From contig CAAFMN010000024.1 in NCBI GenBank assembly GCA_900764045.1, positions 14,492 through 78,491 of the forward strand: 64,000 nucleotides of DNA, given 5' to 3'. Position 1 is the first letter of the stretch. The number at the start of each line of letters is the position of its first letter. The position numbers and the translations under genes are program-made. The notes beneath the pieces are model-generated. The model worked only from the letters and a program-made list of their open reading frames with translations. It ran no database searches and was not told the DNA's origin. The stretch comes from Clostridia bacterium. Lineage in GTDB: Bacteria > Bacillota > Clostridia > Lachnospirales > Bianqueaceae. Shown here in pieces: positions 4,799 through 62,489 of this stretch.

Positions 4799-6178
4799 TT
4801 ATCTGGAGAGTAGATCTTCGCCGATAGTTACGACATCTCCGGCTCCCATAGTTATCAACATATCATGTGGACAACATTTTTTTGATAAAAAGTCTTCGAT
4901 TTCTGTGAAAGAGCCGAAGTAGTAGGCATCCTTTCCGAGAGCCTTCAATGCGTCCGAGATCTGGCGGGAATGAATGTCTCCGGGGTCCTTTTCGCGGCTG
5001 GCGGAGTAGATATCAGCCAGAACGATATGATCGGCCAGGGACAGAGCGGAAACAAAATCGTTGAAGAAGGCCTTGGTCCGACTGTAGGTATGGGGCTGGA
5101 ACACCACATAGAGCTCTCCTTGTACGACCTCTCTGGCTGCCTTCAGGGTCGCGCGGATCTCCGAAGGGTGATGGGCATAGTCGTCGATGATCTGGCAGCC
5201 GCCCATGGTTCCTTTGTATTCAAAACGCTTTTTTGGGCTGTGGTATTGCGCGAGTCCGGACTGGATTTTATCGAAAGAGATTCCGCTGTACAATGCGGCG
5301 CCGACGGCGCACAGACAATCAAAAATATTGTGCGAGCCGGGAACGTGGATCGTAATGCGTCCCAGATCCTGTCCTTGATAGATACAGGAAAAGCTGCTGC
5401 CCAGATGATTTTCGGAAGGACGGATATCCGCTGCCGTCAGATCAGCGGAAGGATCAGTCAGAGAGACGGTCAGCATTTTGCCGGTATAATCCGGGAAAAG
5501 GGGCTGGTAGTCTTTATTGAGAACGAGGCAGCCGCCCGGCTTCAGCCCTGCGACATATTTACGGAAAGAATCCACCATGCGTTCATAGGTCTTGAAATAG
5601 TCCAGATGCTCCGCTTCGACGTTGAGTACGATTCCGATTTCCGGATGGAAATGAAGAAAACTGTCAGAGTATTCGCAGGCCTCGGCGATGAAGTAATCGG
5701 AATGTCCGATGCGGTAATTGCTGTGCAGATTCTCCAGAATACCGCCGATCGTAATTGTCGGATCCTTGTCGGCCTCCAGAAAGATGTAGGACAGCATGGT
5801 GCTGGTGCTGGTCTTGCCATGAGTTCCGGCAATACCAATGGAGTGTGTGTATTCGTCCATCAGCTCGCCCAGAAGGACGGAACGCTCAATGACCCGCGGA
5901 ACCTGCGCACGGGCCGCGATAAGCTCCGGATTATCCTCGTGAACCGCCGCGGTAAAGACTACAACATCAATCCCCGGCGTAATATTTTCAGCACGCTGTC
6001 CGATGACAACCGTGATTCCTTGTTCTTCTAGAGAACGGGTGACAGCGGTAGCCTTCAGATCAGAGCCGGTAACCTGATATCCACGGGATTTCAGGATGCA
6101 CGCAAGGCTGCTCATGCTGATGCCACCGATGCCTATAAAATGAATATGTTTCATAAAAGACCTCTCTGTAATTGTCAT
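4799..6178 (-). CDS. murC: UDP-N-acetylmuramate--L-alanine ligase
   Basis: 459-aa ORF with N-terminal GIGGISMS and Mur-ligase ATP-binding motif (GTHGKTSTS) and typical MurC length. Confidence 0.9.
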   Translation of the reverse strand: MTITERSFMKHIHFIGIGGISMSSLACILKSRGYQVTGSDLKATAVTRSLEEQGITVVIGQRAENITPGIDVVVFTAAVHEDNPELIAARAQVPRVIERSVLLGELMDEYTHSIGIAGTHGKTSTSTMLSYIFLEADKDPTITIGGILENLHSNYRIGHSDYFIAEACEYSDSFLHFHPEIGIVLNVEAEHLDYFKTYERMVDSFRKYVAGLKPGGCLVLNKDYQPLFPDYTGKMLTVSLTDPSADLTAADIRPSENHLGSSFSCIYQGQDLGRITIHVPGSHNIFDCLCAVGAALYSGISFDKIQSGLAQYHSPKKRFEYKGTMGGCQIIDDYAHHPSEIRATLKAAREVVQGELYVVFQPHTYSRTKAFFNDFVSALSLADHIVLADIYSASREKDPGDIHSRQISDALKALGKDAYYFGSFTEIEDFLSKKCCPHDMLITMGAGDVVTIGEDLLSR

Positions 6179-6265: not shown

Positions 6266-6294
6266 TTGACCGAAATTGAAAAAATCAGTATAAT
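6266..6294 (+). promoter_or_regulatory. sigma-A-type promoter upstream of the glmU-like gene
   Basis: TTGACC, a 17-nt spacer, then TATAAT, about 35 nt upstream of the start codon. Confidence 0.4.
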
Positions 6295-6330
6295 GAAGGC
6301 TGCATCAGTCAGAAAGGATAAAGAGAGAAT

Positions 6331-7593
6331 ATGGGAAAACAATGGAATGCGGTTTTGATCGCGGGAACAGAAGGAGCAATGCCGATTGGGCTTGCTGAAA
6401 TATTGGGACGTCCGATGATTGAGTATGTGATACAGGCATTACAGAAAGCCGGGGTCGAGGAGATCTGTATCTTGGCGCCGGGGGCCGAGAAGGCATATCA
6501 GGAGGCGCTGGAGGGTTCATCCAAGGTTCGGATCCTGAGCGAAGGCGGTTTGGCTATAGAAGCGCAGAGGATGGAGACCGGCGCGGATATTGTGGTGATG
6601 AGCGCGAATGTGCCGCTTGTGACGGCACAGGAGTTGGAAGAACTTGTACTGGTGCATCAGGAACACGGCAACGCGGCAACATACTATATGCCCAAGGCAG
6701 ATACGATGCTGCCGGTCATGAGCCGGGAAAAGGGCTTTTGCTTTTGCTTCCGCGCAGAATATCTCGCCGATGCGCTGGAGGCCGTATCGCATTATGCGGC
6801 GACGGATATTCTGACTCGGGTCATCTCCGACGGAGGCCGTGTGGAACAGAGAATTCTGCCGAACGGCGGGGTTTTTGAGATTGTGAGAAACCGTATGCAG
6901 ATGGCGGAGGCTCTGCGTTGCCTGCAGCTTAGAATCAATCGGGAGCATATGATGGCCGGCGTTACAATCATGGCGCCGGAAAATACCTATATTGCACCGG
7001 AGGTGCAGATTGGTGAGAACACGCTGATCTATCCGGGAACCTACCTGGAAGGAACGACCCGGATCGGGAGAAATTGCGTAATCGGGCCGAATTCCAGAAT
7101 CGTTTCTTCGGAAATCGGAGATGGGACGGAGGCGGCGTATTCTACGGTACTGGAGAGCCGTATCGGCCGCAATACCCATGTCGGCCCTTATGCCTATGTG
7201 CGCCCCAACAGCCATATCGGAAACGATGTAAAGGTGGGAGATTTTGTCGAGATCAAGAACTCCAATATTGGCGATGGTACCAAGATGTCGCATCTGACCT
7301 ACGTGGGCGACGCGGATGTAGGAGAGCGCATCAATTTTGGCTGCGGGACGGTAGTCGTCAATTATGATGGTGTACACAAATTCCGCACGGTGATTGAGGA
7401 TGACGTATTTGTAGGATGCAATACCAATCTGGTATCCCCGGTACATGTTCAGAAGGGAGCCTTTATCGCAGCGGGTTCCACCATCACAGAGAATGTACCG
7501 GAGAAGGCGTTGGCGGTAGCGAGGGCGAGACAGGTCAACAAAGAGGGCTGGCTCAGTCCCAAGGATCGGGCTAAACAGGAAAAGGGCGAATGA
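6331..7593 (+). CDS. glmU: GlmU homolog with conserved acetyltransferase domain and degenerate N-terminal uridyltransferase domain
   Basis: The C-terminal left-handed beta-helix hexapeptide repeats and the NYDG...AGSTIT...ARARQVNK region are highly GlmU-like. N-terminal motifs are not conserved: LAAGxGTRM is replaced by LIAGTEGAMPIG, QLGTAHA is absent, and GDTPL is replaced by ANVPL. Confidence 0.75.
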   Translation: MGKQWNAVLIAGTEGAMPIGLAEILGRPMIEYVIQALQKAGVEEICILAPGAEKAYQEALEGSSKVRILSEGGLAIEAQRMETGADIVVMSANVPLVTAQELEELVLVHQEHGNAATYYMPKADTMLPVMSREKGFCFCFRAEYLADALEAVSHYAATDILTRVISDGGRVEQRILPNGGVFEIVRNRMQMAEALRCLQLRINREHMMAGVTIMAPENTYIAPEVQIGENTLIYPGTYLEGTTRIGRNCVIGPNSRIVSSEIGDGTEAAYSTVLESRIGRNTHVGPYAYVRPNSHIGNDVKVGDFVEIKNSNIGDGTKMSHLTYVGDADVGERINFGCGTVVVNYDGVHKFRTVIEDDVFVGCNTNLVSPVHVQKGAFIAAGSTITENVPEKALAVARARQVNKEGWLSPKDRAKQEKGE

Positions 7594-7600: not shown

Positions 7601-8191
7601 ATGTATCTGATAGCAGGTTTGGGAAATCCAGAGGGAAAGTATGCGGCTACACGGCACAATGTGGGATTCGAAGCGGCGGAATGCCTGAGAAAAAAGCTCG
7701 GGTGCGGCCTTCCCAGAATCCGTTTCCATGCGGATATCGCGCAGGGAAAGGTAGGAACAGAGAATGTGATGGTTGTCCGGCCATTGACCTATATGAATTT
7801 AAGCGGGACAGCGATTCGGGAGATTGCCGATTTTTATAAAATTGCGCCGGATCATGTGATCGTGATGTGTGACGACGTGAGTATTCCGTTCGGCCATCTG
7901 CGGCTGCGTCCGAACGGTTCGGCAGGCGGGCATAACGGCCTGAAGAACATCATCGAGCAGCTGGGCAGCCAGAATTTTATGAGAATCCGTATCGGTGTGG
8001 GAGAAAAGCCTGCCGGATGGGATCTGGCGGATTATGTACTGTGCCGCATGAGTGCCGAAGAGCAGCAGCAGATCGGGGAGACGGCCGCGCAGGCTGCGGA
8101 AGCCGCGGTCTGCATCATCGAGCAGGGACTGGGAAAGGCGATGAATCGGTTTAATACACCGCGTGTCAAGCCGGAGCAGGAGAAGAAATAA
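7601..8191 (+). CDS. pth: peptidyl-tRNA hydrolase
   Basis: MYLIAGLGNPEGKYAATRHNVGF N-terminus and 196 aa length. Confidence 0.9.
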   Translation: MYLIAGLGNPEGKYAATRHNVGFEAAECLRKKLGCGLPRIRFHADIAQGKVGTENVMVVRPLTYMNLSGTAIREIADFYKIAPDHVIVMCDDVSIPFGHLRLRPNGSAGGHNGLKNIIEQLGSQNFMRIRIGVGEKPAGWDLADYVLCRMSAEEQQQIGETAAQAAEAAVCIIEQGLGKAMNRFNTPRVKPEQEKK

Positions 8192-11100
8192 TATGCGTGG
8201 AATTTTTCAACCGGCACTTGAGTTTCCGGGATATGGACAGATAAAAGCACGGGCGCTTGCAAAAGAGCCGGTGCTTGTTTCTGGTATCGGAGAGGGAGTA
8301 CAGGACTATCTGGCGGCCGCGCTGGCCGAGGACATGGACAGACCGATTCTGGTTGTTACGGCCAATGAAGTCAGCGCCAGGGCGGTTATGGAAAATATGC
8401 AGTTCTATCACCCTTCCCAGACAGCGTTCTTTCCGGCCAAGGATCCGCTGTTTTACAGTGCGGATGTGCGGGGCGGAGCGATCGAGGAGCAGCGCCTGAA
8501 GGCGATTCACGCGATTCATGAACATAAGGCCAAGGTATTGGTGGTTCCGGTGGAAGCTCTTTTTGACCGTCTGGTTCCCCATGCCGTCTTTCATGATTTT
8601 ACGATCTTCAAGAAGGTCGGGCAGGAGCTGCCGCCGGAGGAGCTTGCGGAGCGTCTGGTCCATATGGGATATAGCCGTAGAGATCAGGTGGAGCATGCGG
8701 GACAGTTTTCGATTCGCGGCGGCGTAATCGATATCTATCCGTTGACGGAAGATACAGCGTATCGTGTGGAGCTCTGGGGAGATGAGATCGATTCGATCCG
8801 GGTACTGGATACGGAGACGCAGCGCTCCGCACACCGCCTGACAGAGATGCGCATTGAACCCGCGCGGGAAATCATTGCCGATTCGGAGACAGAGCGCGCG
8901 GGTCTGGAGAGAATCCAGAAAGAGACCGAGGAAACGGCAGCGCGTTTTCAAAAGCGCGGCAAAGCAGAAGAGGCGCAGAGAATCCGGGAGATGACGGATT
9001 CCTTTTTGTACCGGATGGACGGCGCGCGTTCCAGAACACTGGATGCTCATATCGGCTATTTTTATAAAGAGACCGAATGCATTTTGCAGTATATGCCGGA
9101 GAATACGCTGCTGATCCTGGAAGAGCCCGCGAGAATCCGGGAGAAAGTACGGACATTTCAGGAGGAAATCGCGCAGAGTATACAGGGAAGGCTGGAGAAG
9201 GGCTATCTTTTGCCGGGACAGTGCGAGCTCTTTCCAGACTTTGTTGAAGTGACACGGGTGATGCAGCAGTATGCCGGTGTATACATGTGCGGCCTTCTGG
9301 CAGCGAATCAGCAGATGTTTCCGGTCAAAGAGATCGTGCGGATGCAGAGCCGCTCCGTGAATGTACTCATGAATGAGCAGCAGGAGCTGATCCGGGATCT
9401 GCGGGACTATACGCAAAAAGGATATCGGGTGCTTCTCTTGACAGAATCCAGTTTACGGATCCCGATGGTCATATCATACCTTCAGGAAGAGGAGATTCCC
9501 GTCCGGGGATCGGATAAGGCAGAGGAGGCCCCTCCTCCGGGAATCGTTACCGTGATGAAGGGACAGCTGCGCCATGGCTTTGTATGCCCGGAGGGAAAGT
9601 TCGTTCTGGCAGTGCAGCAGGAGTCCGCGGCAAGGCAGAAGAAGAAAAAACGCCGCCGTAAATTCAAAGAGGGACAGAAGATCGGCACTTTCAGCGAGCT
9701 GACAGTGGGCGATTATGTGGTCCATGAGACGCACGGCGTAGGAATCTATCAGGGAATCGTTCAGCTGGATTCCGACGATGCCTGCAGGGACTATTTTAAG
9801 ATTCTGTATCGGGACGGAGGAGTGCTGTATGTACCGACAACTTCTCTGGATATGCTGCAGCGTTATGTGGGCGGAGAAGATGCCAAACCAAAGGTAAACC
9901 GCCTGGGAGGCCAGGAATGGCAGCGCGCTAAAAATAAAGTAAAAGAGTCGGTTGCCAAGCTTGCAGAGGATCTGATTCAGCTCTATGCGGAACGGGAAGC
10001 CAGGCAGGGATTCGCTTTTTCCAAAGACAGCGTATGGCAGAGGGAGTTTGAAGAGAGCTTTCCTTATGAGGAGACAGAGGATCAGCTGAACGCCATTGAA
10101 GATACCAAGCATGACATGGAGAGCCATAAGATTATGGACCGCCTGATCTGCGGCGATGTCGGCTATGGTAAGACCGAGATTGCCATCCGTGCGGCGTTCA
10201 AGGCAGTGCAGGACGGTAAGCAGGTGGCAATCCTGGCTCCGACAACGATCCTTGCGCAGCAGCATTACAATACATTTACAGCCAGAATGCGGGAGTATCC
10301 GGTGCATATCGATCTGCTCTCCCGTTTCCGCACGAAAAAACAGATTGCAGAGGCGCTGCGGGGCGCGGCGGCCGGAACCGTGGACATTCTGATCGGAACC
10401 CACAGGATTCTGTCGAAGGATGTAAAGTTTAAGGATCTGGGGCTTCTGATCGTGGACGAGGAGCAGCGGTTCGGCGTCAGCCATAAGGAAAAGATCAAAG
10501 CGCTGCAAAAGGACGTGGATGTTCTGACGCTGACGGCGACACCGATTCCGAGAACGCTTCACATGAGCATGTCCGGAATCCGGGACATGAGTGTTCTGGA
10601 GGAACCGCCGCAGGAGCGGCATCCGATTCAGACCTTTGTCATGGAAGAAGATGAGGAGCTGATCCGTGAAGCGATTTATCGGGAGATCGGGCGCGGCGGA
10701 CAGGTCTTTTTCCTGTCCAACCGTGTTCAGAATATTGAGCAGCAGATGCTGCGCGTGCAGAAGCTCGCGCCGGAAGCCAGGGTTTCCTTTGCGCATGGAC
10801 AGATGTCAGAGCGGGAGCTGGAGAACGTGATGATGGAATTTGTTGAAGGGGAGATCGATGTACTGGTCTGCACGACCATCATCGAGACAGGGCTCGATAT
10901 CCCCAATGCCAACACAATCCTGATCGCCGACGCTGATACGATGGGGCTGGCCCAGCTGTATCAGCTGCGGGGCCGTGTCGGACGTTCGGACCGGCTGGCA
11001 TATGCGTATTTTATGTACCCTAAAAACAAAGTTTTGAAAGAGGTCGCGCAGAAACGCCTGGAGGCCATCGGAGAATTTACGGAGTTCGGCTCCGGTTTCC

Positions 11101-11744
11101 GGATTGCCATGCGGGATCTGGAGATTCGCGGCGCAGGCAATATTTTGGGGGCAGAACAGCACGGACATATGGGAGCGGTAGGATATGAGCTATACTGCAA
11201 GCTCCTGAGAGAGGCGATGGAACAGCTGAAGAACACGCCGGTGCGTCCGACCTTCGAGACGACGATGCGGATCGGGGTGGACGCGTATATCCCATCGACT
11301 TATATATCCAACGAGGCACAGAAGCTGGAGGTATATAAGAAGATCGCGGCGATCACCAATGAAGAGGAGTATCTGGAGATGCAGGAGGAACTGTTGGATC
11401 GTTATTCAGATATGCCGGCTCCGGTCGGGAATCTGGTGGATATCAGCTTCCTGAAGGCACTGGCCAACGAGTTGGGAGCCGACAGTCTGGAAGAGGACGG
11501 AAAAGAGCTCCGTCTGCATTTCCGTAAGGATGCTCCGTTGGATCTGGAAAAGCTCCTGAAGCTGGTGCCGCAGATGGGAAAGGGTGCGAGGATCCTTCCG
11601 AAGGAAGACACGCTCCGCATCATCCTGCCGTTTCCGGTAGAGAAAAAGGAAAAGGATTCTATTCGCCTGACCCGGATCCGCAAGGTGTTGGAGCAGCTGG
11701 GAAAAGCCAGACAGGAAGGAGCAGCGGAACATGAAAATCCATAA
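8163..11744 (+). CDS. mfd: transcription-repair coupling factor
   Basis: 1193-aa ORF with a UvrB-homology N-terminus, RNAP-interaction domain, DEAD/DEAH helicase motifs (GDVGYGKTE, DEEQRFG) and a TRCF C-terminal domain. Confidence 0.95.
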   Translation: MSSRSRRRNNMRGIFQPALEFPGYGQIKARALAKEPVLVSGIGEGVQDYLAAALAEDMDRPILVVTANEVSARAVMENMQFYHPSQTAFFPAKDPLFYSADVRGGAIEEQRLKAIHAIHEHKAKVLVVPVEALFDRLVPHAVFHDFTIFKKVGQELPPEELAERLVHMGYSRRDQVEHAGQFSIRGGVIDIYPLTEDTAYRVELWGDEIDSIRVLDTETQRSAHRLTEMRIEPAREIIADSETERAGLERIQKETEETAARFQKRGKAEEAQRIREMTDSFLYRMDGARSRTLDAHIGYFYKETECILQYMPENTLLILEEPARIREKVRTFQEEIAQSIQGRLEKGYLLPGQCELFPDFVEVTRVMQQYAGVYMCGLLAANQQMFPVKEIVRMQSRSVNVLMNEQQELIRDLRDYTQKGYRVLLLTESSLRIPMVISYLQEEEIPVRGSDKAEEAPPPGIVTVMKGQLRHGFVCPEGKFVLAVQQESAARQKKKKRRRKFKEGQKIGTFSELTVGDYVVHETHGVGIYQGIVQLDSDDACRDYFKILYRDGGVLYVPTTSLDMLQRYVGGEDAKPKVNRLGGQEWQRAKNKVKESVAKLAEDLIQLYAEREARQGFAFSKDSVWQREFEESFPYEETEDQLNAIEDTKHDMESHKIMDRLICGDVGYGKTEIAIRAAFKAVQDGKQVAILAPTTILAQQHYNTFTARMREYPVHIDLLSRFRTKKQIAEALRGAAAGTVDILIGTHRILSKDVKFKDLGLLIVDEEQRFGVSHKEKIKALQKDVDVLTLTATPIPRTLHMSMSGIRDMSVLEEPPQERHPIQTFVMEEDEELIREAIYREIGRGGQVFFLSNRVQNIEQQMLRVQKLAPEARVSFAHGQMSERELENVMMEFVEGEIDVLVCTTIIETGLDIPNANTILIADADTMGLAQLYQLRGRVGRSDRLAYAYFMYPKNKVLKEVAQKRLEAIGEFTEFGSGFRIAMRDLEIRGAGNILGAEQHGHMGAVGYELYCKLLREAMEQLKNTPVRPTFETTMRIGVDAYIPSTYISNEAQKLEVYKKIAAITNEEEYLEMQEELLDRYSDMPAPVGNLVDISFLKALANELGADSLEEDGKELRLHFRKDAPLDLEKLLKLVPQMGKGARILPKEDTLRIILPFPVEKKEKDSIRLTRIRKVLEQLGKARQEGAAEHENP

Positions 11745-12885: not shown

Positions 12886-13587
12886 TTGTTGTTTCCAGTG
12901 ATTTATTTTCTTTTCGTTACTGCCAAATGCTTCGCGTACCGCGGCACCTGGAGCTTGTCTCATAAGCGCCACACCAACGGGCACATGTATTATTACAAGC
13001 AAATTGGTAATAAGACCTCTTATGTGAGGCGTGGGGAGGAAGCTCAGGTTCTGGCCGAATACGACGAGCGGCAGAAGTGGCGCCAGGAGCGCAAGAATCT
13101 CAACCAGCAGTTGATGAATTTATCGCCTGCCGAGCGCCGTGAAGTCCGCCAGCAAATGAAATTATACCAGGAACTAGGACTTGAGAAATTCCCCTTAGAC
13201 AAGGATGTGTCCTTCGACGGGACGGTTCTCGATTCCAGAGCCGAGATTATCCTCTATGAATTCTTGAGAAATCTGGGCCTTAAGGCTGAACACAACCGCC
13301 CGGTTGATCCTCATCCCTATAGTTATTTGCCTGATTTCACGTTTACCCTTAATGGCAAAAGAATGTATTTGGAACATATGGGCAAACTAGAAGATCCCCA
13401 ATATCGCCGCAAGCAGATCGAAAAGATCAAAAACTACAAAACCTATGACATCCGGCTCGGCGAGAATCTGATTATCACAAGCTCCAATAGACATTTCCAA
13501 GCACCCAGAATCCTCTGGCAACTCGTCATCCGCGGAGTTTTGTCAGCGTCAAAAGCAAGAAAGCTGATCAGAAAGAACAAAAAGTGA
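12886..13587 (+). CDS. hypothetical protein with hydrophobic N-terminus, coiled-coil segment and possible nuclease-like C-terminal region
   Basis: 233-aa ORF with a TTG start, a strong RBS and its own promoter. The C-terminus carries YLPDF...NGKRMYLEHMGK, loosely reminiscent of endonuclease-fold motifs. I recognise no family. Confidence 0.4.
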   Translation: MLFPVIYFLFVTAKCFAYRGTWSLSHKRHTNGHMYYYKQIGNKTSYVRRGEEAQVLAEYDERQKWRQERKNLNQQLMNLSPAERREVRQQMKLYQELGLEKFPLDKDVSFDGTVLDSRAEIILYEFLRNLGLKAEHNRPVDPHPYSYLPDFTFTLNGKRMYLEHMGKLEDPQYRRKQIEKIKNYKTYDIRLGENLIITSSNRHFQAPRILWQLVIRGVLSASKARKLIRKNKK

Positions 13588-27511: not shown

Positions 27512-28882
27512 ATGAAAACGATTTATATGATCAGAGGGTGGATCTGCCGTATTTTCAAACAATATGAACTGATCGCCAAGGTGCTGTTGAAGTTCGGCGC
27601 ATATCTGTTTATTTTCCGGCAGATCGCAGGATGGGACGGCTTTCAGAATATCGGAGTGCTCAACGCGTTTTCTGTGCATATGTTGTTGGCGCTCTTGTGC
27701 GTATTGCTGCCGGCCCGTTTTGTCGCGTTCTTTTCAGTAGCGATCATCGTCTATAATATTTATCAGGTATCCTTCTGGGGCGCACTTATGGCGGCGGCAC
27801 TGCTTCTGATACTCTATGTGATGGTATCCAGACTTTGTCCGGATGAGACGGTGCTGATGATCCTGATGCCGTTGGCGATGAAATGGAATCTTGTCCTGGT
27901 CGTTCCGTTGTTCGCGGGATTGTACATGGGCGTCTTTTCTATCATACCGATCGTGGGAGGAATTCTCCTGGCAGGATTCCTGAAGATTATTCCGGCGTTT
28001 ACACAGTTTAATGTGACAGCGATAGACGCGCTTCCGGCAGCCATGTCGGAAACCATGAGCTATATCGGGGATCAGCTTCTTAAGAATGAGAACCTGATCT
28101 TTACGATGATCCTGTGCGCGGGTGTTGTATTGGTTGTATATCTGCTCAATAAGATCAGCATCAATTATATGCGGTATTTATCCTTGTGCGTGGGCGCACT
28201 GGTAGGCTTGGTGTGCTATATTGTCGGCAAGATGGCAGGTATGACGGATACAGGCATTTTGGCTGCGTTGGTGATACCGATCGTATCACTGGCGATTATG
28301 ATCGTGGTGGAGTTTTTCCATATGGCGCTCAACTATCAGATGGCGCAGCGTTTGGCGTTCGCGGATGATGAGTATTACTATTATGTGCGTGCCATCCCTA
28401 AGATTCTTGGTATCCGCAATAAGACTGAGGTCAAGACAATTACGACCGGAAGAAGCCAGGAAAGCCGCGAGACCGAGCCGGTGGTAGTACATGAGTTGGA
28501 GCCGATGGAGAAGCCGGAAGGGGAGGCAGAGCATGTGCCTTCAGAGCGAGAAGAAAAACTGGCGGCCGCGGTCAATGAGAAGAAGCAGCAGGCAACGCGG
28601 AAGCTGGATTCGGTATTGCATCAGCTTGGCAGCAAAGCTAAGGATATGATGGATAAGACCAAGGAAAAGCCGAAACAGAAGACGGAAGAAAAGCAGGAGC
28701 CAAAGAAGCCGGAGGGGACAGAGATTCCGAAATCTCCGGTACATGGCGAGAACTTTGAAGTGCCGAGACCGGAAAGCGCTGAAGAGCTTGCTAAGCGGAC
28801 AGGCTGGTCAGAAGAGACGATCCGAGGCTTTTTCGAAGGATTGGATATGGAGTCTCAACAGGAAGACAAGGAGAAAAAGTAA
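27512..28882 (+). CDS. hypothetical polytopic membrane protein with charged low-complexity C-terminal tail
   Basis: 456-aa ORF with about 8 TM helices and a roughly 150-aa K/E-rich disordered C-terminus. Confidence 0.5.
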   Translation: MKTIYMIRGWICRIFKQYELIAKVLLKFGAYLFIFRQIAGWDGFQNIGVLNAFSVHMLLALLCVLLPARFVAFFSVAIIVYNIYQVSFWGALMAAALLLILYVMVSRLCPDETVLMILMPLAMKWNLVLVVPLFAGLYMGVFSIIPIVGGILLAGFLKIIPAFTQFNVTAIDALPAAMSETMSYIGDQLLKNENLIFTMILCAGVVLVVYLLNKISINYMRYLSLCVGALVGLVCYIVGKMAGMTDTGILAALVIPIVSLAIMIVVEFFHMALNYQMAQRLAFADDEYYYYVRAIPKILGIRNKTEVKTITTGRSQESRETEPVVVHELEPMEKPEGEAEHVPSEREEKLAAAVNEKKQQATRKLDSVLHQLGSKAKDMMDKTKEKPKQKTEEKQEPKKPEGTEIPKSPVHGENFEVPRPESAEELAKRTGWSEETIRGFFEGLDMESQQEDKEKK

Positions 28883-28961
28883 ATAATACAGGGGCTGCCC
28901 CCATAAGGCGGCCCTTGTGTGGTTTGCGCCGCAAAGAATATCGGTGGAAGGAAGTGTGATT

Positions 28962-29843
28962 ATGGGATGGTTTGAACAGGTAGTGGAGTGGGTTCGTTCC
29001 AGTATCGGAATCACGTTCGTCCCTAAACTGGGACTGATCGATCTGCTGGATATTTTATTTGTGGCTTTTTTAGTATATCAGATTTTGGTCTGGTTCCGTA
29101 TGACACGGGCATGGACGCTTTTTAAGGGAGTCATTTTCCTTTTGATCATCGCGATGGCGACTTCCATGCTGCAGATGAGCATGAGTTCATGGCTTTTGCA
29201 GAATACCATGGTTTACGGAGTTTTGGCTGTGGTCATTATATTTCAGCCGGAGATCCGGCGCGCGCTGGAAAAGCTGGGGCACGGCGGACTGTTCTCCATT
29301 CTGGCCAGCGAGGAGAATGCCTGTCAGGTTACCAGAGAGACGGTATCGGAGATCGCGGACGCGATGGAGCAGATGGCGGCCGTCAAGACGGGAGCGCTGA
29401 TCGTGGTGGAGCAGGAAGTTAAACTGGGAGAATACGAGGAAACGGGTATTCCGGTGGACGCGGTTGTGACATCGCAGCTGCTCATCAATATCTTCGAACA
29501 TAATACCCCGCTTCATGACGGAGCCGTATTGATCCGGAACAACCGGATTACTTCCGCTACATGCTATCTGCCTTTGTCAGCCAACATGAATATCAGCAAG
29601 GCCATGGGGACAAGACATAGAGCGGCGCTGGGACTCAGCGAGGTATCGGACGCCAAGATCTTTGTCGTATCCGAAGAGACCGGTTCCATGTCGATGGCAC
29701 AGGGAGGGAAAATTACCCGGGATATTGATCGTGAGTTTATCATGAATCAGTTCCAGTATAAGGATGAAAAAGAGAAAAAGTCCAAAGTCATTCGGAACAA
29801 GCTGAGACAGTATACGAGAAAAGGGGGAAAAACCGATGCTTGA
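28962..29843 (+). CDS. cdaA: diadenylate cyclase (c-di-AMP synthase)
   Basis: Three N-terminal TM segments and a DAC domain (DGA and RHRAA motifs). Start is the internal ATG after RBS ggaaggaag. Confidence 0.9.
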   Translation: MGWFEQVVEWVRSSIGITFVPKLGLIDLLDILFVAFLVYQILVWFRMTRAWTLFKGVIFLLIIAMATSMLQMSMSSWLLQNTMVYGVLAVVIIFQPEIRRALEKLGHGGLFSILASEENACQVTRETVSEIADAMEQMAAVKTGALIVVEQEVKLGEYEETGIPVDAVVTSQLLINIFEHNTPLHDGAVLIRNNRITSATCYLPLSANMNISKAMGTRHRAALGLSEVSDAKIFVVSEETGSMSMAQGGKITRDIDREFIMNQFQYKDEKEKKSKVIRNKLRQYTRKGGKTDA

Positions 29844-31149
29844 TTTTGTTAAAAAGTTTTTCTCCAAAAATCTTTTGTTAAAGATATTCTCCGTTGTATT
29901 CTCATTTTGTCTGTGGGTGATGGTCGTCAACCAGCAAGACCCTGTAACGACGGAGACGATTCATAATATACCGATTGCCATACAGAACGAAAATTATTTT
30001 GAAGAGCAGAACCAGCATGTTACACTGGAATCGGAGATGAGGCTCAGTGTGACAGTGAGCGGACGTCGATCGATCGTAGAGAATCTGACGGCGGATAATT
30101 TTAACGCGTATATCGATTATCTGGCTGTACAGCCGGAGGAAGGACGCGCGGAGGTTTCCTGTACGGTTGATGATCGGAACGTGACAGTGAAGCATCAGAG
30201 TGTATCCTATGTCAGGCTTAATGTGGAAGATATCGTATCCAAGGAGTATACGATTCAGCTCCGCACGGAAGGAACGCCGGCGGAGGGGTATGTTGTCGTC
30301 GCGCAGGACGCGTACGCGGTAATGGAACCGTCGGTTGTAATCCTTTCCGGACCGCAGAGTCAGATTGACAGAATCGCTTCCGCGGAAGCCGTGCTGGATG
30401 TACAGGACGCTTCTGATACGGTATCGGGCAAGGGCAAGGCCATCACTTTCCTGGATACGGACGGCAATCCGGTGCTTCTGGATGAGCTGGAGGATATCTC
30501 CTATTCGGCCAAAGTGATGATGCAGCTGAGCGTGCCGGTGTATTTTGTCCAGGAGGTTCCGATCCGCACGGTGGAGATCACGGAAGATCCGAATAATGAG
30601 TATTATGTGGATAGTAGCAGCCTCTCGCAGGAGTCTGTTCAGCTCTACGGTCCCAAGAATGTTCTGGCCGGTATTACAGAGATTGAGCTTGCGGCGGTGT
30701 CGGCAGCAGATAAAACCGCGACATTCCAGCAGAGCTATGACCTGGCGGCAGTTTGTACCAAGATGTCTCAGGAATACGGAGTGCATATAGGACTCGTCGG
30801 CGGCAGCGCGTCGCAGACGACTCTGACAGTCAATATGAAGAAAAAAGAGATCCGAAGTTTCAGCATTACAGGGCAGAACTTTACCTGGCAGAACTCCGTC
30901 AAAGGCAAGACCTATACCTTGGCGGACAGCAGCGCTATCGTCCAGATACAGGGGAAGCCTTCAGCGCTGGACAGCCTGACATCGGCCAATATTCGCTGTA
31001 TGGCAGATGTAGGGGCATTGACCGAAAACGGAACGTATGAGGTGAGTATAGTCTATGCAGCGCCGGAGGGCCTGAAGGTTTACGGAGCGCCGCAGACACT
31101 CAGTATCGTGGTCGCGGATGAAGATACAGCGGGAACAGCGCAATCATAA
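29836..31149 (+). CDS. cdaR: CdaA regulatory protein CdaR (YbbR-like domains)
   Basis: N-terminal TM segment plus repeated YbbR-like domains, translationally coupled to cdaA. Confidence 0.85.
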   Translation: MLDFVKKFFSKNLLLKIFSVVFSFCLWVMVVNQQDPVTTETIHNIPIAIQNENYFEEQNQHVTLESEMRLSVTVSGRRSIVENLTADNFNAYIDYLAVQPEEGRAEVSCTVDDRNVTVKHQSVSYVRLNVEDIVSKEYTIQLRTEGTPAEGYVVVAQDAYAVMEPSVVILSGPQSQIDRIASAEAVLDVQDASDTVSGKGKAITFLDTDGNPVLLDELEDISYSAKVMMQLSVPVYFVQEVPIRTVEITEDPNNEYYVDSSSLSQESVQLYGPKNVLAGITEIELAAVSAADKTATFQQSYDLAAVCTKMSQEYGVHIGLVGGSASQTTLTVNMKKKEIRSFSITGQNFTWQNSVKGKTYTLADSSAIVQIQGKPSALDSLTSANIRCMADVGALTENGTYEVSIVYAAPEGLKVYGAPQTLSIVVADEDTAGTAQS

Positions 31150-31174
31150 CAAGCAGTATGGGAGGAGCGGCCAC

Positions 31175-40921: not shown

Positions 40922-41541
40922 TGCGCGTCCCTACGGGGATGGAGCAGAGTTATCAGAGAAAATGCGAACAAAGGATAGAAGCGCCGGTTCTGGAAAAAAG
41001 TTTTTTGCCATATTATGATGAGATGAGGAAACAAGGCGGCGTATGGACCATCCGTCCATGCGTGCTGTTTCCGGGTTATGTGTTTATGCAGACAAGGGAA
41101 CCGGAGGAGCTTCAGCGAAAGTTGAGGCAGATTCCGGGCTGGAAATCACTTGTAACAGTGGGGACAGAGATTGTGCCGATCACACCAGCTGAAGAGGCAC
41201 TTCTTCGGGAGCTGGGGCATGAGGAGCAAGTGATCCCCGTTTCACGCGGGATTATACAGGATAATGAGATTATCGTCACAGAGGGGCCTTTAAAGGGCAA
41301 GGAAGCGTACATCCGAAGGATTGACCGTCATAAACGGCGGGCATATCTGGAATGGCATATGGCATCGGAGGTAGTGGAGGCCGGAGTCAGTCTGGAGATC
41401 TACGCCAAGAATCAACCGGAGAGAAAGTATAAGACAGAATTTTTTAATGGAAATCACGCGGTGGTTAGCCTGGAAGACGGGCAAACCGCACAGAATATAC
41501 AAAGTATATACATGGAGACGAAAAAGCGGAAAGGAGTATAG
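40909..41541 (+). CDS. NusG-family transcription antiterminator paralog (LoaP/UpxY-like)
   Basis: NGN motifs (WYVMRVPTGMEQ, LFPGYVFMQ) and a KOW motif (IVTEGPLKGKEAYIRRID). It directly precedes a polysaccharide locus. Confidence 0.75.
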   Translation: MWYVMRVPTGMEQSYQRKCEQRIEAPVLEKSFLPYYDEMRKQGGVWTIRPCVLFPGYVFMQTREPEELQRKLRQIPGWKSLVTVGTEIVPITPAEEALLRELGHEEQVIPVSRGIIQDNEIIVTEGPLKGKEAYIRRIDRHKRRAYLEWHMASEVVEAGVSLEIYAKNQPERKYKTEFFNGNHAVVSLEDGQTAQNIQSIYMETKKRKGV

Positions 41542-41544
41542 GCT

Positions 41545-43389
41545 ATGTGTGGAATCATCGGATATATCGGTAAAGAAGAGAAGGCGACCAATATTATCAT
41601 GGAAGGGTTGGCCAAGCTGGAATACCGGGGATATGACTCGGCGGGAATCGCGGTTTTCACGCCCTCAGGGATCTGTATAGAAAAGAAAAAGGGAAGGCTG
41701 TCCAACCTGGCGGAGCATCTCAAGGAGGTCGGTTTTCCGCAGGGCTATGCCGGAATCGGCCATACCCGCTGGGCAACGCATGGAGAACCGTCCGATATCA
41801 ATGCGCATCCGCATTGCAGTATGGATCACTCGGTGGTTGTGGTACATAATGGTATCATCGAAAATTACGCACAGCTGCGGGATCAGCTGATTGCTCAGGG
41901 GAGTTCCTTTGTCTCTGAGACGGATACGGAGATCCTGGCCAATGTGATCGCATGGTATTATAAGCAGGAAAAGGAGCCGGTGAAGGCGATCAATAAGGCT
42001 CTCAGTGTCATGCGTGGTTCTTATGGTCTGGGAATCCTTTTTGCGGACCATCCGGACACGATATACGCGACAAGAAAGGACAGTCCCTTGATTGTAGGAC
42101 TTGGTAAGGGAGAGAACTATATAGCCTCGGATATCCCCGCCATACTGAATCATACCCGGGACGTATATCTTCTGGAAAATCATGATATCGCGGTCCTGAC
42201 GACCGATACGATTCAGATCGTCGGAGCGGACGGAAATCCGGTTCACAGGGACATTTTCCACGTGACCTGGGATGTAGCGGCGGCAGAAAAGGGCGGATAT
42301 CCGCATTTTATGTTGAAGGAGATCTATGAGCAGCCCCAGGCCGTCAGAGACACACTCAATTCTCGGCTGCAGGATACGGTGGACCGCCCGAGAATGGAAG
42401 ATCTGGGTATCGGTCAGGAAGTATTGGACAATCTGGATCGGATCTATCTGGTAGCCTGCGGTACAGCATATCATGCGGCGATGGTAGGCAAATACCTGAT
42501 TGAGCGGATTGCCAGAGTCAGTACGGTCGTGGAGACGGCCTCCGAGTTCCGGTATCGGGATCCGATCATTGATGAAAAAACACTGGTCATTGTCGTATCG
42601 CAGTCCGGAGAGACGGCGGATACGCTCGCGGCGCTACGGATATCCAAGGCTGCCGGAGCTAAGGTGCTGGGCATCGTGAATGTTGTCGGCTCCAGTATCA
42701 GCCGGGAAGCGGATTATGTATTCTATACCTGGGCTGGCCCGGAGATTGCCGTTGCCAGTACCAAGGCCTATTCCTGCCAGCTCGCGGCCATGTACCTATT
42801 AAGCGCCCATTTTGCCATGCTGCGTGGGAAGATGACTACAGAAGAGTTCCGGGCGCTGCGCAGCGATCTGATCGGTCTGCCAGCCAAGATTGAGGAGATC
42901 CTTCAGAAGGCGGAAGAGATCCATAAGATTGTGGAAGAGAATGATCCATACAATGTGTTTTATGTCGGACGAGGACTGGATTATTACACCGGTATGGAGG
43001 GCTCCCTAAAGCTCAAGGAAGTCGCGTATCTGCATAGTGAAGCCTATGCTGCCGGAGAATTGAAGCATGGACCGATCGCGATGATTGAAAAGGGAACGCT
43101 TGTGATCGGCATTGTGACGCAAAAGAGCCTGATCGAGAAGACCATCAGCAACCTCAAGGAGGTCAAGGCCCGAGGCGCGAAGGTGCTCTGCATTGCGGCG
43201 GAGGATGCGGATATGGCGTTGATCCGCAGTGTAGCGGATGAGATCATCACCATTCCGTCCTGCAATTGGATGTTTACCTCGCTGCTGGCCAATATCCCGC
43301 AGCAGCTGATCGCCTATTACATGTCCGTAAAAAAGGGATACGATGTAGATAAGCCGAGAAATCTGGCCAAAAGTGTCACCGTTGAGTAA
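41545..43389 (+). CDS. glmS: glutamine--fructose-6-phosphate aminotransferase
   Basis: MCGIIGY N-terminal nucleophile and two SIS domains, 614 aa. It lies 3 nt after the NusG paralog, leaving no room for a glmS ribozyme. Confidence 0.95.
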   Translation: MCGIIGYIGKEEKATNIIMEGLAKLEYRGYDSAGIAVFTPSGICIEKKKGRLSNLAEHLKEVGFPQGYAGIGHTRWATHGEPSDINAHPHCSMDHSVVVVHNGIIENYAQLRDQLIAQGSSFVSETDTEILANVIAWYYKQEKEPVKAINKALSVMRGSYGLGILFADHPDTIYATRKDSPLIVGLGKGENYIASDIPAILNHTRDVYLLENHDIAVLTTDTIQIVGADGNPVHRDIFHVTWDVAAAEKGGYPHFMLKEIYEQPQAVRDTLNSRLQDTVDRPRMEDLGIGQEVLDNLDRIYLVACGTAYHAAMVGKYLIERIARVSTVVETASEFRYRDPIIDEKTLVIVVSQSGETADTLAALRISKAAGAKVLGIVNVVGSSISREADYVFYTWAGPEIAVASTKAYSCQLAAMYLLSAHFAMLRGKMTTEEFRALRSDLIGLPAKIEEILQKAEEIHKIVEENDPYNVFYVGRGLDYYTGMEGSLKLKEVAYLHSEAYAAGELKHGPIAMIEKGTLVIGIVTQKSLIEKTISNLKEVKARGAKVLCIAAEDADMALIRSVADEIITIPSCNWMFTSLLANIPQQLIAYYMSVKKGYDVDKPRNLAKSVTVE

Positions 43390-58472: not shown

Positions 58473-59426
58473 ATGAAAACAACATTACTGATAATGGCCG
58501 CAGGTATCGGCTCCCGCTTCGGCGGTGGTATTAAGCAGCTTGAGCCGGTTGGCCTGCATGACGAAATCATCATGGACTATTCCATCCACGATGCCATCAA
58601 GGCAGGATTTAATAAGATTATTTTTGTAATCCGTAAAGATATAGAAGCTGACTTCCGGGAACGAATCGGTGAACGTGTGGAGAGCATCTGCAATAATGCA
58701 GGTGTGGAAGTAGGCTATGCTTTTCAGGATATTAATGATATTCCGGCATCCTATTCTGTTCCCACTGGCCGTACTAAGCCGTGGGGTACTGGACAGGCTG
58801 TACTTGCTGCGAAAGAGCTAATCCATGAGCCGTTTATGGTCATCAACGCGGATGACTATTACGGGAAAGAAGCGTTCAAGGCATTACACGACTGGCTAAT
58901 ACTGCCTCATGCGGACAACGCCATTGCTATGGCTGGATTCATTCTGAAGAATACACTATCTGATAACGGCGGTGTGACCAGAGGTGTGTGCAAGGTAGAA
59001 GAAGGGCATACGCATATTGTTGATGTTGTAGAAACGAGCAATATTGTGAAGACTGTTGATAGGGATGGCAATGTTGGAGCAGAAGCTGATGGCGTAAAAC
59101 TCAATCCGGACTCCTATGTTTCCATGAATATGTGGGGCTTCCCGGCTGCGGAAGGAGAGGCTCCTGCGTTCCTTCAAGTGCTTGAGTATGGTTGGCTTGA
59201 TTTCTTTAAGGATTCAGTATCGGCTAATCCTCTGAAAGCTGAGTATCTGCTACCGACGCTGATCGGTGGACTGTTGAGAACTGGTTCTTGTACTGTAAAA
59301 GTTCTGGAGACGAATGATAAATGGTTTGGTGTTACCTATAAGGAAGATAAGCCTGTGGTAGTGGAGAGCTTTAAGAAGCTGATTGCTGATGGTGTATACG
59401 GTGAGGAACTGTATAGAGATTTATAA
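58473..59426 (+). CDS. sugar-phosphate nucleotidyltransferase (NTP_transferase domain)
   Basis: LIMAAGIGSRFGG glycine-rich motif, about 318 aa. Start is the internal ATG after RBS ggaaggga. Confidence 0.6.
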   Translation: MKTTLLIMAAGIGSRFGGGIKQLEPVGLHDEIIMDYSIHDAIKAGFNKIIFVIRKDIEADFRERIGERVESICNNAGVEVGYAFQDINDIPASYSVPTGRTKPWGTGQAVLAAKELIHEPFMVINADDYYGKEAFKALHDWLILPHADNAIAMAGFILKNTLSDNGGVTRGVCKVEEGHTHIVDVVETSNIVKTVDRDGNVGAEADGVKLNPDSYVSMNMWGFPAAEGEAPAFLQVLEYGWLDFFKDSVSANPLKAEYLLPTLIGGLLRTGSCTVKVLETNDKWFGVTYKEDKPVVVESFKKLIADGVYGEELYRDL

Positions 59427-59462
59427 TTGGCGGTAGAGTTAATCAGAGATGGAGGATTTTCT

Positions 59463-59720: not shown

Positions 59721-59724
59721 AGCG

Positions 59725-59935: not shown

Positions 59936-60004
59936 CCGCTTTATTGCAAAGTGACTCTGAAAACTCTGAAAACTTGAACATTAGTTGACTTAAGTTTTGA
60001 GCTT

Positions 60005-60135: not shown

Positions 60136-60171
60136 TAGGGTTCTCCTTTCCTGCATCAGCAGAGCGGATTC

Positions 60172-60582: not shown

Positions 60583-60705
60583 ATCCTTTCTGCCGCTGCA
60601 GAATGTTTAAGTATGCGATATGCAGCGGAATCTGTATATTTTCATAAGACGAAATTAAATTGCACTTAAAATCGTCCTTATTCTCACATAAAAGCGGTTT
60701 TATAC

Positions 60706-62486: not shown

Positions 62487-62489
62487 CGC

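What the first reader, a model, noticed from the sequence alone, without database searches (positions are those of the whole stretch)
6331..7593. GlmU homolog keeps a conserved acetyltransferase domain but has lost the uridyltransferase catalytic motifs
The C-terminal LbetaH acetyltransferase domain aligns closely with bona fide GlmU. In the N-terminal domain the pyrophosphorylase signature LAAGxGTRM reads LIAGTEGAMPIG. The uridine-binding QLGT(A/G)HA motif is absent, and GD(T/V)PL reads ANVPL. UDP-GlcNAc uridylyl transfer would therefore need another enzyme. The orphan NTP-transferase gene at 58473-59426 (motif AAGIGSRFGG) is a candidate, or a second glmU copy elsewhere. prs is also missing from its usual position between glmU and pth.
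Basis: partly seen in the sequence, partly recalled or inferred. Interest (0 to 1): 0.55.

Follow-up and report, generated by a model that had tools for sequence, protein, structure and literature searches.

The report
GlmU with a dead uridyltransferase domain
In a small group of uncultured gut Clostridia, the cell-wall precursor enzyme GlmU keeps a working acetyltransferase half but carries a catalytically dead, still-conserved uridyltransferase half, so another, unidentified enzyme must finish making UDP-GlcNAc.

Summary
ORF 6331-7593 (420 aa) is the positional ortholog of glmU (murC | glmU-pth-mfd).

- **Acetyltransferase half:** the C-terminal LβH domain is 60-66% identical to real GlmUs, and every catalytic and substrate residue is invariant.
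- **Uridyltransferase half:** the N-terminal domain has lost or replaced R18, K25, Q76, G81/T82, D105, G140, E154, N169, E195 and N227 (E. coli numbering). It carries 26-aa and 6-aa deletions. All GlmU equivalog models score below their cut-offs.
- **Not decay:** the dead domain still folds (AF2 pLDDT 90) and is under purifying selection (ω about 0.03-0.09). Only the two former substrate loops vary freely.
- **Distribution:** six GTDB species, one 50%-identity cluster among 1.84 billion representatives.
- **Other lineages:** in related lineages the same genomic slot holds intact GlmU or uridyltransferase-only forms (248 or 335 aa).

The inference that another uridyltransferase is needed is sound, but I could not identify it. 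The proposed candidate at 58473-59426 sits in a low-GC polysaccharide cluster. It belongs to a family roughly 80% identical in Lachnospiraceae and has no specific support. The missing prs is a lineage trait. A June 2026 preprint (NagU in S. aureus) already describes partial GlmU loss, so this is a new variant of a known kind.

The parts
6331..7593 (+). glmU* coding sequence (420 aa): degenerate uridyltransferase-fold domain, helical arm and intact LβH acetyltransferase domain.
6266..6294 (+). Sigma-70-type promoter-like site TTGACC-17-TATAAT (11 of 12 matches) in the murC/glmU* divergent intergenic region. A purine-rich RBS follows at about 6313-6328.
   Evidence: consensus match only
6331..6888 (+). 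N-terminal pseudo-uridyltransferase domain (aa 1-186). It keeps the α/β fold and has lost all catalytic residues. It is under purifying selection (ω 0.03-0.09 in unsaturated pairs).
6355..6390 (+). Former P-loop: LIAGTEGAMPIG in place of LAAGxGTRMxSxxPK. R18 and K25 are absent. This stretch is hypervariable with indels inside the clade.
6481..6585 (+). Former uracil/GlcNAc loop region (aa 51-85). Q76 and the LGTGHA motif are absent. The region is variable with indels, and 28 residues are deleted in one species (L014).
6604..6618 (+). ANVPL in place of GD(T/V)PL. The Mg2+-binding Asp105 is Asn and Tyr103 is Ser. A 96%-identical relative has ADVPL.
6688..6693 (+). Site of the 26-aa deletion (between aa 120 and 121). 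It removes PTGYGRIxR...VEHKDA, including Y139, G140 and E154.
6787..6792 (+). Site of the 6-aa deletion (between aa 153 and 154). NxNxQGEYY is replaced by HYAAT, with E195 changed to His.
6961..7560 (+). LβH acetyltransferase domain (aa 211-410). R291, E307, K309, H321, Y324, N335, N344, K350, A381 and R398 correspond to E. coli R333, E349, K351, H363, Y366, N377, N386, K392, A423 and R440. All are invariant across 77 sequences.
4799..6178 (-). murC, divergently transcribed. It is the conserved upstream neighbour in every clade member.
7601..8191 (+). pth, which starts 8 bp after the glmU* stop. It is the conserved downstream neighbour and is followed by mfd (8163-11744).
41545..43389 (+). glmS, called from its N-terminal sequence and length only. 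It is the first step of the hexosamine pathway and suggests the organism makes GlcN-6-P de novo.
   Evidence: sequence MCGIIGY..., 614 aa; not profiled
58473..59426 (+). It is the last gene of a low-GC polysaccharide cluster. I list it as a candidate partner only.

Best explanation
The gene is the vertically inherited glmU of a narrow clade of uncultured, spore-forming gut Clostridia (it includes Ca. Faecimorpha stercoravium and MGYG-HGUT-04224). Its C-terminal LβH domain still acetylates glucosamine-1-phosphate to GlcNAc-1-P. Its N-terminal domain is a pseudo-enzyme: it keeps the nucleotidyltransferase fold but cannot bind UTP/Mg2+ or GlcNAc-1-P, so it does not make UDP-GlcNAc. A separate, not yet identified uridyltransferase must carry out that last step in trans. 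The dead domain is retained under selection as a scaffold, for stability or for an interaction or regulatory role.

Shown: loss of all uridyltransferase residues, intact acetyltransferase residues, retained fold, purifying selection, orthologous position, narrow distribution.

Inferred: actual enzyme activities, the existence and identity of the trans-acting uridyltransferase, and the reason for keeping the domain.
For: Loss of uridyltransferase residues:
- R18, K25, Q76, G81/T82, Y103, D105, G140, E154, N169, E195 and N227 are each replaced or deleted in two independent alignments.
- All these positions are invariant in bona fide GlmUs.
- The N-domain is 22-30% identical to real GlmUs and the C-domain 60-66%. 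Real GlmUs compared with each other give 58% and 66%.
- All GlmU equivalogs score below their cut-offs.

Intact acetyltransferase:
- Acetyltransferase residues are invariant across 77 sequences.
- The C-half scores 258 bits against solved S. aureus GlmU.

Retained fold:
- AF2 gives pLDDT 90.4 and pTM 0.84. The top Foldseek hits are all GlmU structures, with TM up to 0.82.

Selection:
- ω for the N-domain is 0.03-0.09 and for the C-domain 0.025-0.05 in unsaturated pairs.
- Within the clade the N-domain is as conserved as PrsA.
- Only the two former substrate loops vary and take indels.

Orthology:
- murC | glmU*-pth-mfd-prsA is conserved in all clade loci. The closest intact GlmU (P0009) is also followed by pth.

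Precedent for trans-acting uridyltransferases:
- NagU in S. aureus, with partial GlmU in other taxa (bioRxiv 10.64898/2026.06.23.733835).
- GlmR (PMC10128056).
Against: - No enzyme assay exists, so inactivity is inferred from sequence and a predicted structure.
- The trans-acting uridyltransferase was not found. Only about 64 kb of this genome and ±10 kb around glmU* in the other species could be inspected.
- Strong purifying selection on the N-domain leaves room for an unrecognised function.
- The E. coli numbering rests on a sequence I recalled from memory. It was checked only by its agreement with the literature residue numbers.
Confidence: 0.8

Rival explanations
1. The nucleotidyltransferase at 58473-59426 is the dedicated GlcNAc-1-P uridyltransferase that replaced the GlmU N-domain.
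For: It is the only other nucleotidyltransferase-fold ORF in the window. It keeps GxGSR and WGTGQA motifs that resemble the UTP and uracil motifs of GlmU and GalU. It is present on 23 contigs of this species, so it is not a rare strain-specific gene.
Against: It is the last gene of a polysaccharide cluster (priming transferase, Glf, glycosyltransferases, Wzx, Wzy) whose GC is 35-45% against about 52% for the rest of the window. It is about 80% identical to Lachnospiraceae proteins, whereas this organism's conserved GlmU C-domain, Pth and Mfd reach only 54-66% identity outside the clade. That suggests horizontal acquisition. Its specificity is unknown: the best solved relative, 3PNN, is uncharacterised, and GalU scores only about 25-32 bits. 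Its presence in the other clade species could not be shown.
Confidence: 0.12
2. A UAP1-like NagU homolog (PF01704) elsewhere in the genome supplies the uridyltransferase, as in S. aureus and in NagU-bearing bacteria with partial GlmU.
For: The preprint reports NagU 'sporadically in Clostridia'. [quoted passage not shown]
Against: No PF01704 protein is encoded in the window among the ORFs I scanned, and none appears in the Pfam gene tables of the clade loci fetched with them (L001-L010). The rest of the genomes could not be searched.
Confidence: 0.35
3. A stand-alone GlmU-type N-domain protein, or a second complete glmU, elsewhere in the genome supplies the uridyltransferase. This is the duplication and subfunctionalisation scenario.
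For: Stand-alone 241-248 aa GlmU N-domain proteins are abundant in gut Clostridia MAGs on long contigs. At least one (P0442) lies outside the glmU slot.
Against: None of the N-only proteins I examined could be tied to this clade. The best matches, P0440 and P0443, turned out to occupy the glmU slot of other lineages rather than being paralogs. No such gene lies within ±10 kb of glmU*.
Confidence: 0.25
4. The N-domain is still an active uridyltransferase that uses non-canonical residues.
For: The domain is under strong purifying selection and folds confidently.
Against: No basic residue remains in the P-loop region. The Mg2+-binding Asp is Asn (and Asp in a 96%-identical relative, so the position is unconstrained). 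The sugar-binding segment is deleted. The former substrate loops are the least conserved parts and take indels, including a 28-aa deletion in one species.
Confidence: 0.04
5. Artefact or pseudogene: a sequencing or assembly error, or a decaying gene.
For: None found.
Against: The identical protein occurs on 17 contigs from independent samples. It forms a 44-member cluster, with orthologs in six GTDB species. The reading frame is intact and ω is far below 1 in both domains.
Confidence: 0.01

Closest known systems
Bifunctional GlmU (TIGR01173; E. coli, S. pneumoniae and M. tuberculosis structures)
   Same: Same overall fold and domain order (Foldseek TM up to 0.82). Same genomic slot upstream of pth-mfd. 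The acetyltransferase domain is 60-66% identical to bona fide Clostridial GlmUs, with all catalytic and substrate residues.
   Different: All uridyltransferase residues are lost and the N-domain is about 32 residues shorter. It scores below every GlmU equivalog cut-off. I predict it to be monofunctional.
S. aureus GlmU (Ser169 variant) working with NagU (bioRxiv 10.64898/2026.06.23.733835)
   Same: GlmU whose uridyltransferase is compromised, with UDP-GlcNAc completed by a separate enzyme.
   Different: S. aureus GlmU has a single substitution and is still active (kcat 6.3 s-1). Here the whole active site is gone. No NagU homolog has been shown for this clade.
C-terminal-only or split GlmU forms in PVC bacteria and Wujia chipingensis (same preprint)
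   Same: The acetyltransferase function is encoded without a working uridyltransferase domain.
   Different: Those are described as truncated. Here the N-domain is physically retained, folded and under purifying selection. This clade consists of uncultured MAGs, so it was probably outside the preprint's survey, which covered RefSeq genomes.
Pseudo-nucleotidyltransferase plus LβH proteins: eIF2B ε/γ and GMPPA
   Same: The same two-domain architecture, with a catalytically dead nucleotidyltransferase domain kept for a non-catalytic role. PF25084 LbH_EIF2B and the GMPPA/GMPPB complex appear among the hits.
   Different: Those are eukaryotic regulatory subunits whose LβH domain is also non-catalytic. 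Here the LβH domain appears fully catalytic. The resemblance is an analogy and not orthology.
Uridyltransferase-only occupants of the glmU slot in related gut Clostridia (P0566, 248 aa; P0440/P0443, 335 aa)
   Same: Same syntenic slot upstream of pth-mfd-prsA and the same ancestral gene, with loss of one of the two activities.
   Different: They show the opposite loss: the acetyltransferase is gone and the uridyltransferase is intact. That form is common (many clusters). The dead-uridyltransferase form is confined to one clade.

Membership tests
Bifunctional GlmU (TIGR01173 / NF010934 equivalogs) | Whole-protein score at or above the curated equivalog cut-off. | tested here: not met
   NF010934 scores 388.3 against 450 and TIGR01173 scores 337.7 against 366.85. 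Nine further GlmU models fall further below their cut-offs.
Bifunctional GlmU | Pyrophosphorylase signature L-x2-G-x-G-T-R-M ... P-K (Arg18, Lys25). | tested here: not met
   The sequence reads LIAGTEGA-MPIG, with no Arg or Lys at either position in MAFFT or hhalign alignments.
Bifunctional GlmU | Uracil/GlcNAc loop Q76 ... L-G-T-G-H-A (Gly81, Thr82). | tested here: not met
   The loop is replaced by SEG--GLAIEA. The region is variable and takes indels within the clade.
Bifunctional GlmU | Y-G-D-(T/V)-P-L with the Mg2+-binding Asp105. | tested here: not met
   The sequence reads S-A-N-V-P-L.
Bifunctional GlmU | Sugar-binding residues Gly140, Glu154, Asn169, Glu195 and Asn227. | tested here: not met
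   G140 and E154 lie in the 26-aa deletion. N169 is Lys or a gap, E195 is His and N227 is Arg.
Bifunctional GlmU | LβH acetyltransferase domain with His363, Glu349, Arg333, Lys351, Tyr366, Asn377, Asn386, Lys392 and Arg440. | tested here: met
   All are present and invariant in the 77-sequence alignment. The C-half scores 258 bits against solved GlmU.
Bifunctional GlmU | Orthologous genomic position (glmU upstream of pth-mfd in Firmicutes). | tested here: met
Bifunctional GlmU | Both enzyme activities demonstrable. | not testable with these tools
   This needs biochemistry.
Pseudoenzyme domain (dead nucleotidyltransferase scaffold, as in eIF2Bε/γ and GMPPA) | Fold retained. | tested here: met
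   N-domain pLDDT is mostly 70-95. The whole-chain Foldseek hits are GlmU structures.
Pseudoenzyme domain | Catalytic residues lost while the domain stays under purifying selection. | tested here: met
   ω is 0.03-0.09. The core has column conservation of 0.78-0.86 and the former loops 0.42-0.48.
Pseudoenzyme domain | A demonstrated non-catalytic function (binding partner or allosteric ligand). | not testable with these tools
   No data.
NagU-dependent UDP-GlcNAc pathway (Fong et al. 2026 preprint) | A UAP1-like NagU (PF01704) encoded in the same genome. | tested here: inconclusive
   None is found among the window ORFs I scanned or in the Pfam gene tables of clade loci L001-L010. About 97% of the genome could not be inspected.
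NagU-dependent UDP-GlcNAc pathway | GlmU uridyltransferase impaired or absent. | tested here: met

The most novel reading that the evidence does not exclude
The dead N-domain has been kept because it acquired a new role. It might act as a docking platform that hands GlcNAc-1-P to the trans-acting uridyltransferase, or as an allosteric sensor of a UDP-sugar that controls the acetyltransferase. The glmU slot of gut Clostridia would then be a hotspot of reciprocal domain loss: uridyltransferase-dead here, and acetyltransferase lost in many Lachnospiraceae. That would imply redundancy in UDP-GlcNAc synthesis across this group, going beyond what the NagU preprint describes.
Probability: 0.25. Interest if true: 0.65.

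Novelty: new variant of a known kind. Interest (0 to 1): 0.5.

Why it matters
GlmU is treated as a universally essential bifunctional enzyme and as an antibiotic target. A 2026 preprint has begun to overturn that view for S. aureus and some other taxa.

This clade adds a clean natural case. The uridyltransferase half is unambiguously dead yet kept as a conserved scaffold, at the ancestral locus, in gut commensals. Related lineages show the opposite loss at the same locus.

It also shows a practical problem. Some source annotations label these proteins 'bifunctional GlmU', which would mislead metabolic reconstructions of gut MAGs.

Finally, it defines a precise search: which uridyltransferase co-occurs with this form?

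Tried and rejected
1. **Contig-length fingerprints.** I tried to spot partner genes on the same chromosome-size contigs. This proved unreliable, because the hit tables give the contig length of the cluster representative only. Compare P0006 at 2661 bp with its member P0148 at 2.16 Mb.

2. **P0438-P0445 as complementary paralogs.** These are 335-aa proteins with an intact uridyltransferase and a truncated LβH domain. I rejected the idea for the two I looked up, P0440 and P0443. They occupy the same glmU-pth-mfd-prsA slot in a different lineage, where Pth is 54% and Mfd 62% identical to the window's.

3. **Naming N-only proteins by cluster membership.** The only names returned were 'Lachnospiraceae bacterium'. 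There was no link to the clade.

4. **P0442, the best N-only hit.** It is a stand-alone gene at another locus, and its organism cannot be determined.

5. **Literature on the 3PNN family and on split GlmU in Lachnospiraceae.** Nothing was found.

6. **Rfam scan of the window.** No hits, so there is no glmS ribozyme or other riboswitch bearing on the pathway.

7. **HMM and Pfam scans for another uridyltransferase.** I scanned the window ORFs and all fetched loci. Only the polysaccharide-cluster NTase turned up.

8. **GlmR as the sole replacement.** I down-weighted this because natively regulated GlmR could not compensate in S. aureus.

9. **Genome walking with the remaining look-ups.** I judged this unproductive: about 20 kb per step in a genome of roughly 2.2 Mb.
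Full report
**The observation**

ORF 6331..7593 (+) encodes a 420-aa protein. It lies between a divergently transcribed murC (4799-6178, minus strand) and pth (7601-8191) followed by mfd (8163-11744). A near-consensus promoter-like site (TTGACC-17-TATAAT, 6266-6294) and a purine-rich RBS precede it.

Pfam finds strong hexapeptide-repeat hits. The nucleotidyltransferase signal is weak: NTP_transf_3 at 29 bits, and PF00483 at 15 bits, below its cut-off. All eleven NCBIfam GlmU equivalogs are the top hits, yet every one falls below its curated cut-off. The best is 388 against 450, TIGR01173 is 338 against 366.85, and the best-matching stretch covers only residues 137-411. Against solved GlmU structures the C-terminal half scores 258 bits and the N-terminal half 20 bits.

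**A clade, not a one-off**

A search of 5.8 billion protein clusters gives eight clusters, P0001 to P0008, that are 63-96% identical and 392-451 aa. None has a PF00483 annotation. The list then drops sharply to ordinary full-length GlmUs at 49% identity or less.

In the alignment every member of the clade lacks LAAGxGTRM, the Lys of PKxLH, QxxxLGTGHA and the Asp of GDTPL. All members share a 26-residue deletion (PTGYGRIxR...VEHKDA) and a 6-residue deletion (NxNxQGEYY becomes xYAAT).

I added E. coli GlmU as a numbering ruler. I recalled that sequence from memory, and its residue numbers reproduce those used in the literature. All of these positions are invariant in 11 bona fide sequences. In the query they read as follows:

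| E. coli residue | State in the query |
|---|---|
| R18 | Ala or gap |
| K25 | Ile |
| Q76 | Ser or gap |
| G81/T82 | deleted |
| Y103 | Ser |
| D105 | Asn |
| Y139/G140/E154 | deleted |
| N169 | Lys or gap |
| E195 | His |
| N227 | Arg |

A profile-profile alignment of the clade N-domain against bona fide N-domains confirms homology (99.7% probability) at only 17% identity. It gives the same residue assignments.

Against real GlmUs the query N-domain is 22-30% identical and the C-domain 60-66%. Real GlmUs compared with each other give 58% and 66%. An HMM of intact N-domains scores 316-381 bits on intact proteins and 38-78 bits on the clade.

**The acetyltransferase half is intact**

With an offset of 42 from E. 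coli numbering, the relevant residues are R291, E307, K309, H321, Y324, N335, N344, K350, A381 and R398. These correspond to R333, E349, K351, H363, Y366, N377, N386, K392, A423 and R440. All are invariant across a 77-sequence alignment of clade members and real GlmUs. The equivalents of A380 and S405 are Cys, as in the other Clostridial GlmUs.

**The dead domain is retained, not decaying**

AlphaFold2 on the 77-sequence alignment gives pLDDT 90.4 and pTM 0.84, with an α/β N-domain mostly at pLDDT 70-95. The top 34 Foldseek hits in the PDB are all GlmU structures, with TM up to 0.82.

I estimated dN/dS by the Nei-Gojobori method on coding DNA from the window and seven clade loci. In pairs where dS is not saturated, ω is 0.03-0.09 for the N-domain and 0.025-0.05 for the C-domain.

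Within the clade the N-domain is 50-56% identical. That is as conserved as the neighbouring PrsA (47-50%). Pth is 70-75% and Mfd 77-81%.

The constraint is patterned:
- The former P-loop (res 12-24) has column conservation of 0.42, and the former uracil loop (res 51-85) 0.48. These are the only parts with indels, including a 28-aa deletion in one species.
- The core segments (res 25-50, 86-120, 135-186) score 0.78-0.86, like the LβH domain.
- The Asn at the old Asp105 position is Asp in a 96%-identical relative, so that site is unconstrained.

This is the signature of an abandoned active site on a scaffold that is still needed.

**Orthology and distribution**

In all clade loci the order is methyltransferase, dnaC-like, dnaB-like and murC on the minus strand, then glmU*, pth, mfd and prsA, followed by spoVT, HU, S4, yabP and divIC. 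The closest intact GlmU (P0009, 49% identical) is also followed directly by pth. So glmU* is the ancestral gene and not an accessory paralog. The absence of prs between glmU and pth is a trait of the wider lineage.

A scan of 185,579 GTDB species genomes for the clade-specific motifs EHGNA[AV]TY and GFCFCFRA found six genomes. They come from human, chicken and roe-deer gut MAGs and include Ca. Faecimorpha stercoravium and MGYG-HGUT-04224. A full HMMER search of 1.84 billion 50%-identity representatives with the clade N-domain profile found one full-length representative and two fragments. Scores then dropped to 65 bits or less for generic nucleotidyltransferase folds.

NCBI annotates one member as 'hypothetical protein'. 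Another source calls a member 'bifunctional N-acetylglucosamine-1-phosphate ...'.

**Who supplies the uridyltransferase?**

The window encodes what looks like glmS (41545-43389, called from its sequence and length only), murC and sporulation/cell-wall genes. UDP-GlcNAc is therefore needed, and GlcNAc-1-P is presumably still made.

In the window the only other nucleotidyltransferase-fold ORF is 58473-59426. Several points count against it as a dedicated replacement:
- It closes a polysaccharide cluster (Bac_transf, Glf, DUF4422, acyltransferase, GT2, Branch, GT4, Wzy, Wzx, GT4) whose GC is 35-45%, against about 52% elsewhere.
- Its best solved relative is the uncharacterised 3PNN at 232 bits. 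GalU matches reach only about 25-32 bits.
- It is about 80% identical to a very large family in Lachnospiraceae, a much higher identity than this organism's housekeeping proteins reach outside the clade.
- It is common within this species, on 23 contigs, but I could not show it in the other clade species.

It remains possible but has no specific support.

No PF01704 (NagU-like) or PF01933 (GlmR) protein is encoded among the window ORFs I scanned or appears in the Pfam gene tables of the clade loci fetched with them. No other GlmU-type N-domain lies within ±10 kb of glmU* in any clade species. The cdaA-cdaR operon (28917-31149) is not followed by glmM. The rest of these genomes could not be searched with the available tools.

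**Comparison with what is known**

A June 2026 preprint (bioRxiv 10.64898/2026.06.23.733835) reports the following:
- S. aureus makes most of its UDP-GlcNAc with NagU, a UAP1-like uridyltransferase.
- Staphylococcal GlmU has an impaired site (Ser169 in place of Asn169).
- NagU occurs sporadically in Clostridia.
- Many NagU-bearing bacteria have only N-terminal, only C-terminal or split GlmU.
- Natively regulated GlmR could not compensate in vivo.

Listeria GlmR is an accessory uridyltransferase in vitro (PMC10128056).

The general idea is therefore already described. The present form differs because the N-domain is physically retained, folded and selected. It also occurs in uncultured MAG lineages, which that RefSeq-based survey probably did not cover.

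**An unexpected comparative result**

I searched with the intact N-domain of the sister lineage. The best hits are short proteins.
- P0440 and P0443 (335 aa) have all uridyltransferase motifs but stop after a few LβH coils. They sit in the same slot: dapB on the minus strand, then the gene, pth, mfd, prsA, HU, S4 and divIC. Only 41 bp separate the stop codon from pth.
- A very abundant Lachnospiraceae protein, P0566 (248 aa, N-domain only), also sits in that slot: rpsF, ssb, rpsR, the gene, pth, mfd, prsA.

The glmU slot of gut Clostridia therefore exists in at least four states: intact, uridyltransferase-only, uridyltransferase plus an LβH stump, and the uridyltransferase-dead form with an intact acetyltransferase. 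The last state is rare and confined to this clade.

**Verdict**

I rate this a new variant of a known kind and of moderate interest. The key open item is the identity of the partner enzyme.

Noticed in passing
L023:10001-11008, L024:2610-3617, L022:1749-2756 (proteins P0443, P0440): In a related Clostridial lineage the same slot upstream of pth-mfd-prsA holds a 335-aa GlmU. It has all uridyltransferase motifs but an LβH domain cut after a few coils, with no His363 region, and only 41 bp before pth. This is the reciprocal loss.
   Followed up: partly
L027:8001-8747, L028:8001-8747 (protein P0566): A very abundant Lachnospiraceae lineage (the protein is indexed in 155 blocks of the collection) has a 248-aa uridyltransferase-only protein in the glmU slot (rpsF-ssb-rpsR, gene, pth-mfd-prsA). 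Its GlcN-1-P acetyltransferase must be elsewhere or bypassed.
   Followed up: partly
L026:2218-2961 (protein P0442): A stand-alone 247-aa GlmU-type uridyltransferase domain gene lies outside the glmU slot, next to Metallophos and transglutaminase-like genes, in an unidentified organism.
   Followed up: no
L011 (CAVGBV010000037.1): A contig whose glmU* product is 96% identical to the window's sits in a MAG labelled Alloprevotella sp. This is almost certainly a misbinned Clostridial contig.
   Followed up: no
window 40909-43389: glmS has no glmS ribozyme (Rfam finds nothing in the whole window). It is directly preceded by a NusG-like paralog (210 aa) and followed by the polysaccharide cluster. 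This suggests LoaP-type antitermination control of glmS plus the cluster.
   Followed up: no
window 28917-32833: The cdaA-cdaR operon is followed by a MutS_V-domain protein and not by glmM, which is the usual Firmicute neighbour.
   Followed up: no
window 35189-37568: A DinG/XPD-like helicase is split into two overlapping ORFs (DEAD_2, 436 aa; Helicase_C_2, 382 aa; 80-nt overlap). This could be a frameshift, a sequencing error or a real split.
   Followed up: no
window 32826-35201: An unusual 791-aa fusion of an Fe-ADH_2 (AraM-like) domain with a GH43 glycoside hydrolase domain.
   Followed up: no
window 59439-63612; L018:6991-12954: Mobile-element-like genes (HTH, sigma-70 region 4, RepA_N, Y1 transposase) and an epimerase gene fragment lie immediately downstream of the low-GC polysaccharide cluster. 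This is consistent with horizontal acquisition of the cluster.
   Followed up: no
L007 and L018 (GCA_965643355.1): This NCBI 'assembly' holds contigs of two different clade species (CBFFOQ010000026.1 and CBFFOQ010002051.1), so it is a metagenome assembly and not a single genome. In L007, mfd is called as two ORFs (237 + 937 aa), probably because of a frameshift error.
   Followed up: no
window 27512-28882 and 12886-13587: Two ORFs (456 aa and 233 aa) have no Pfam match. The first lies directly upstream of cdaA.
   Followed up: no
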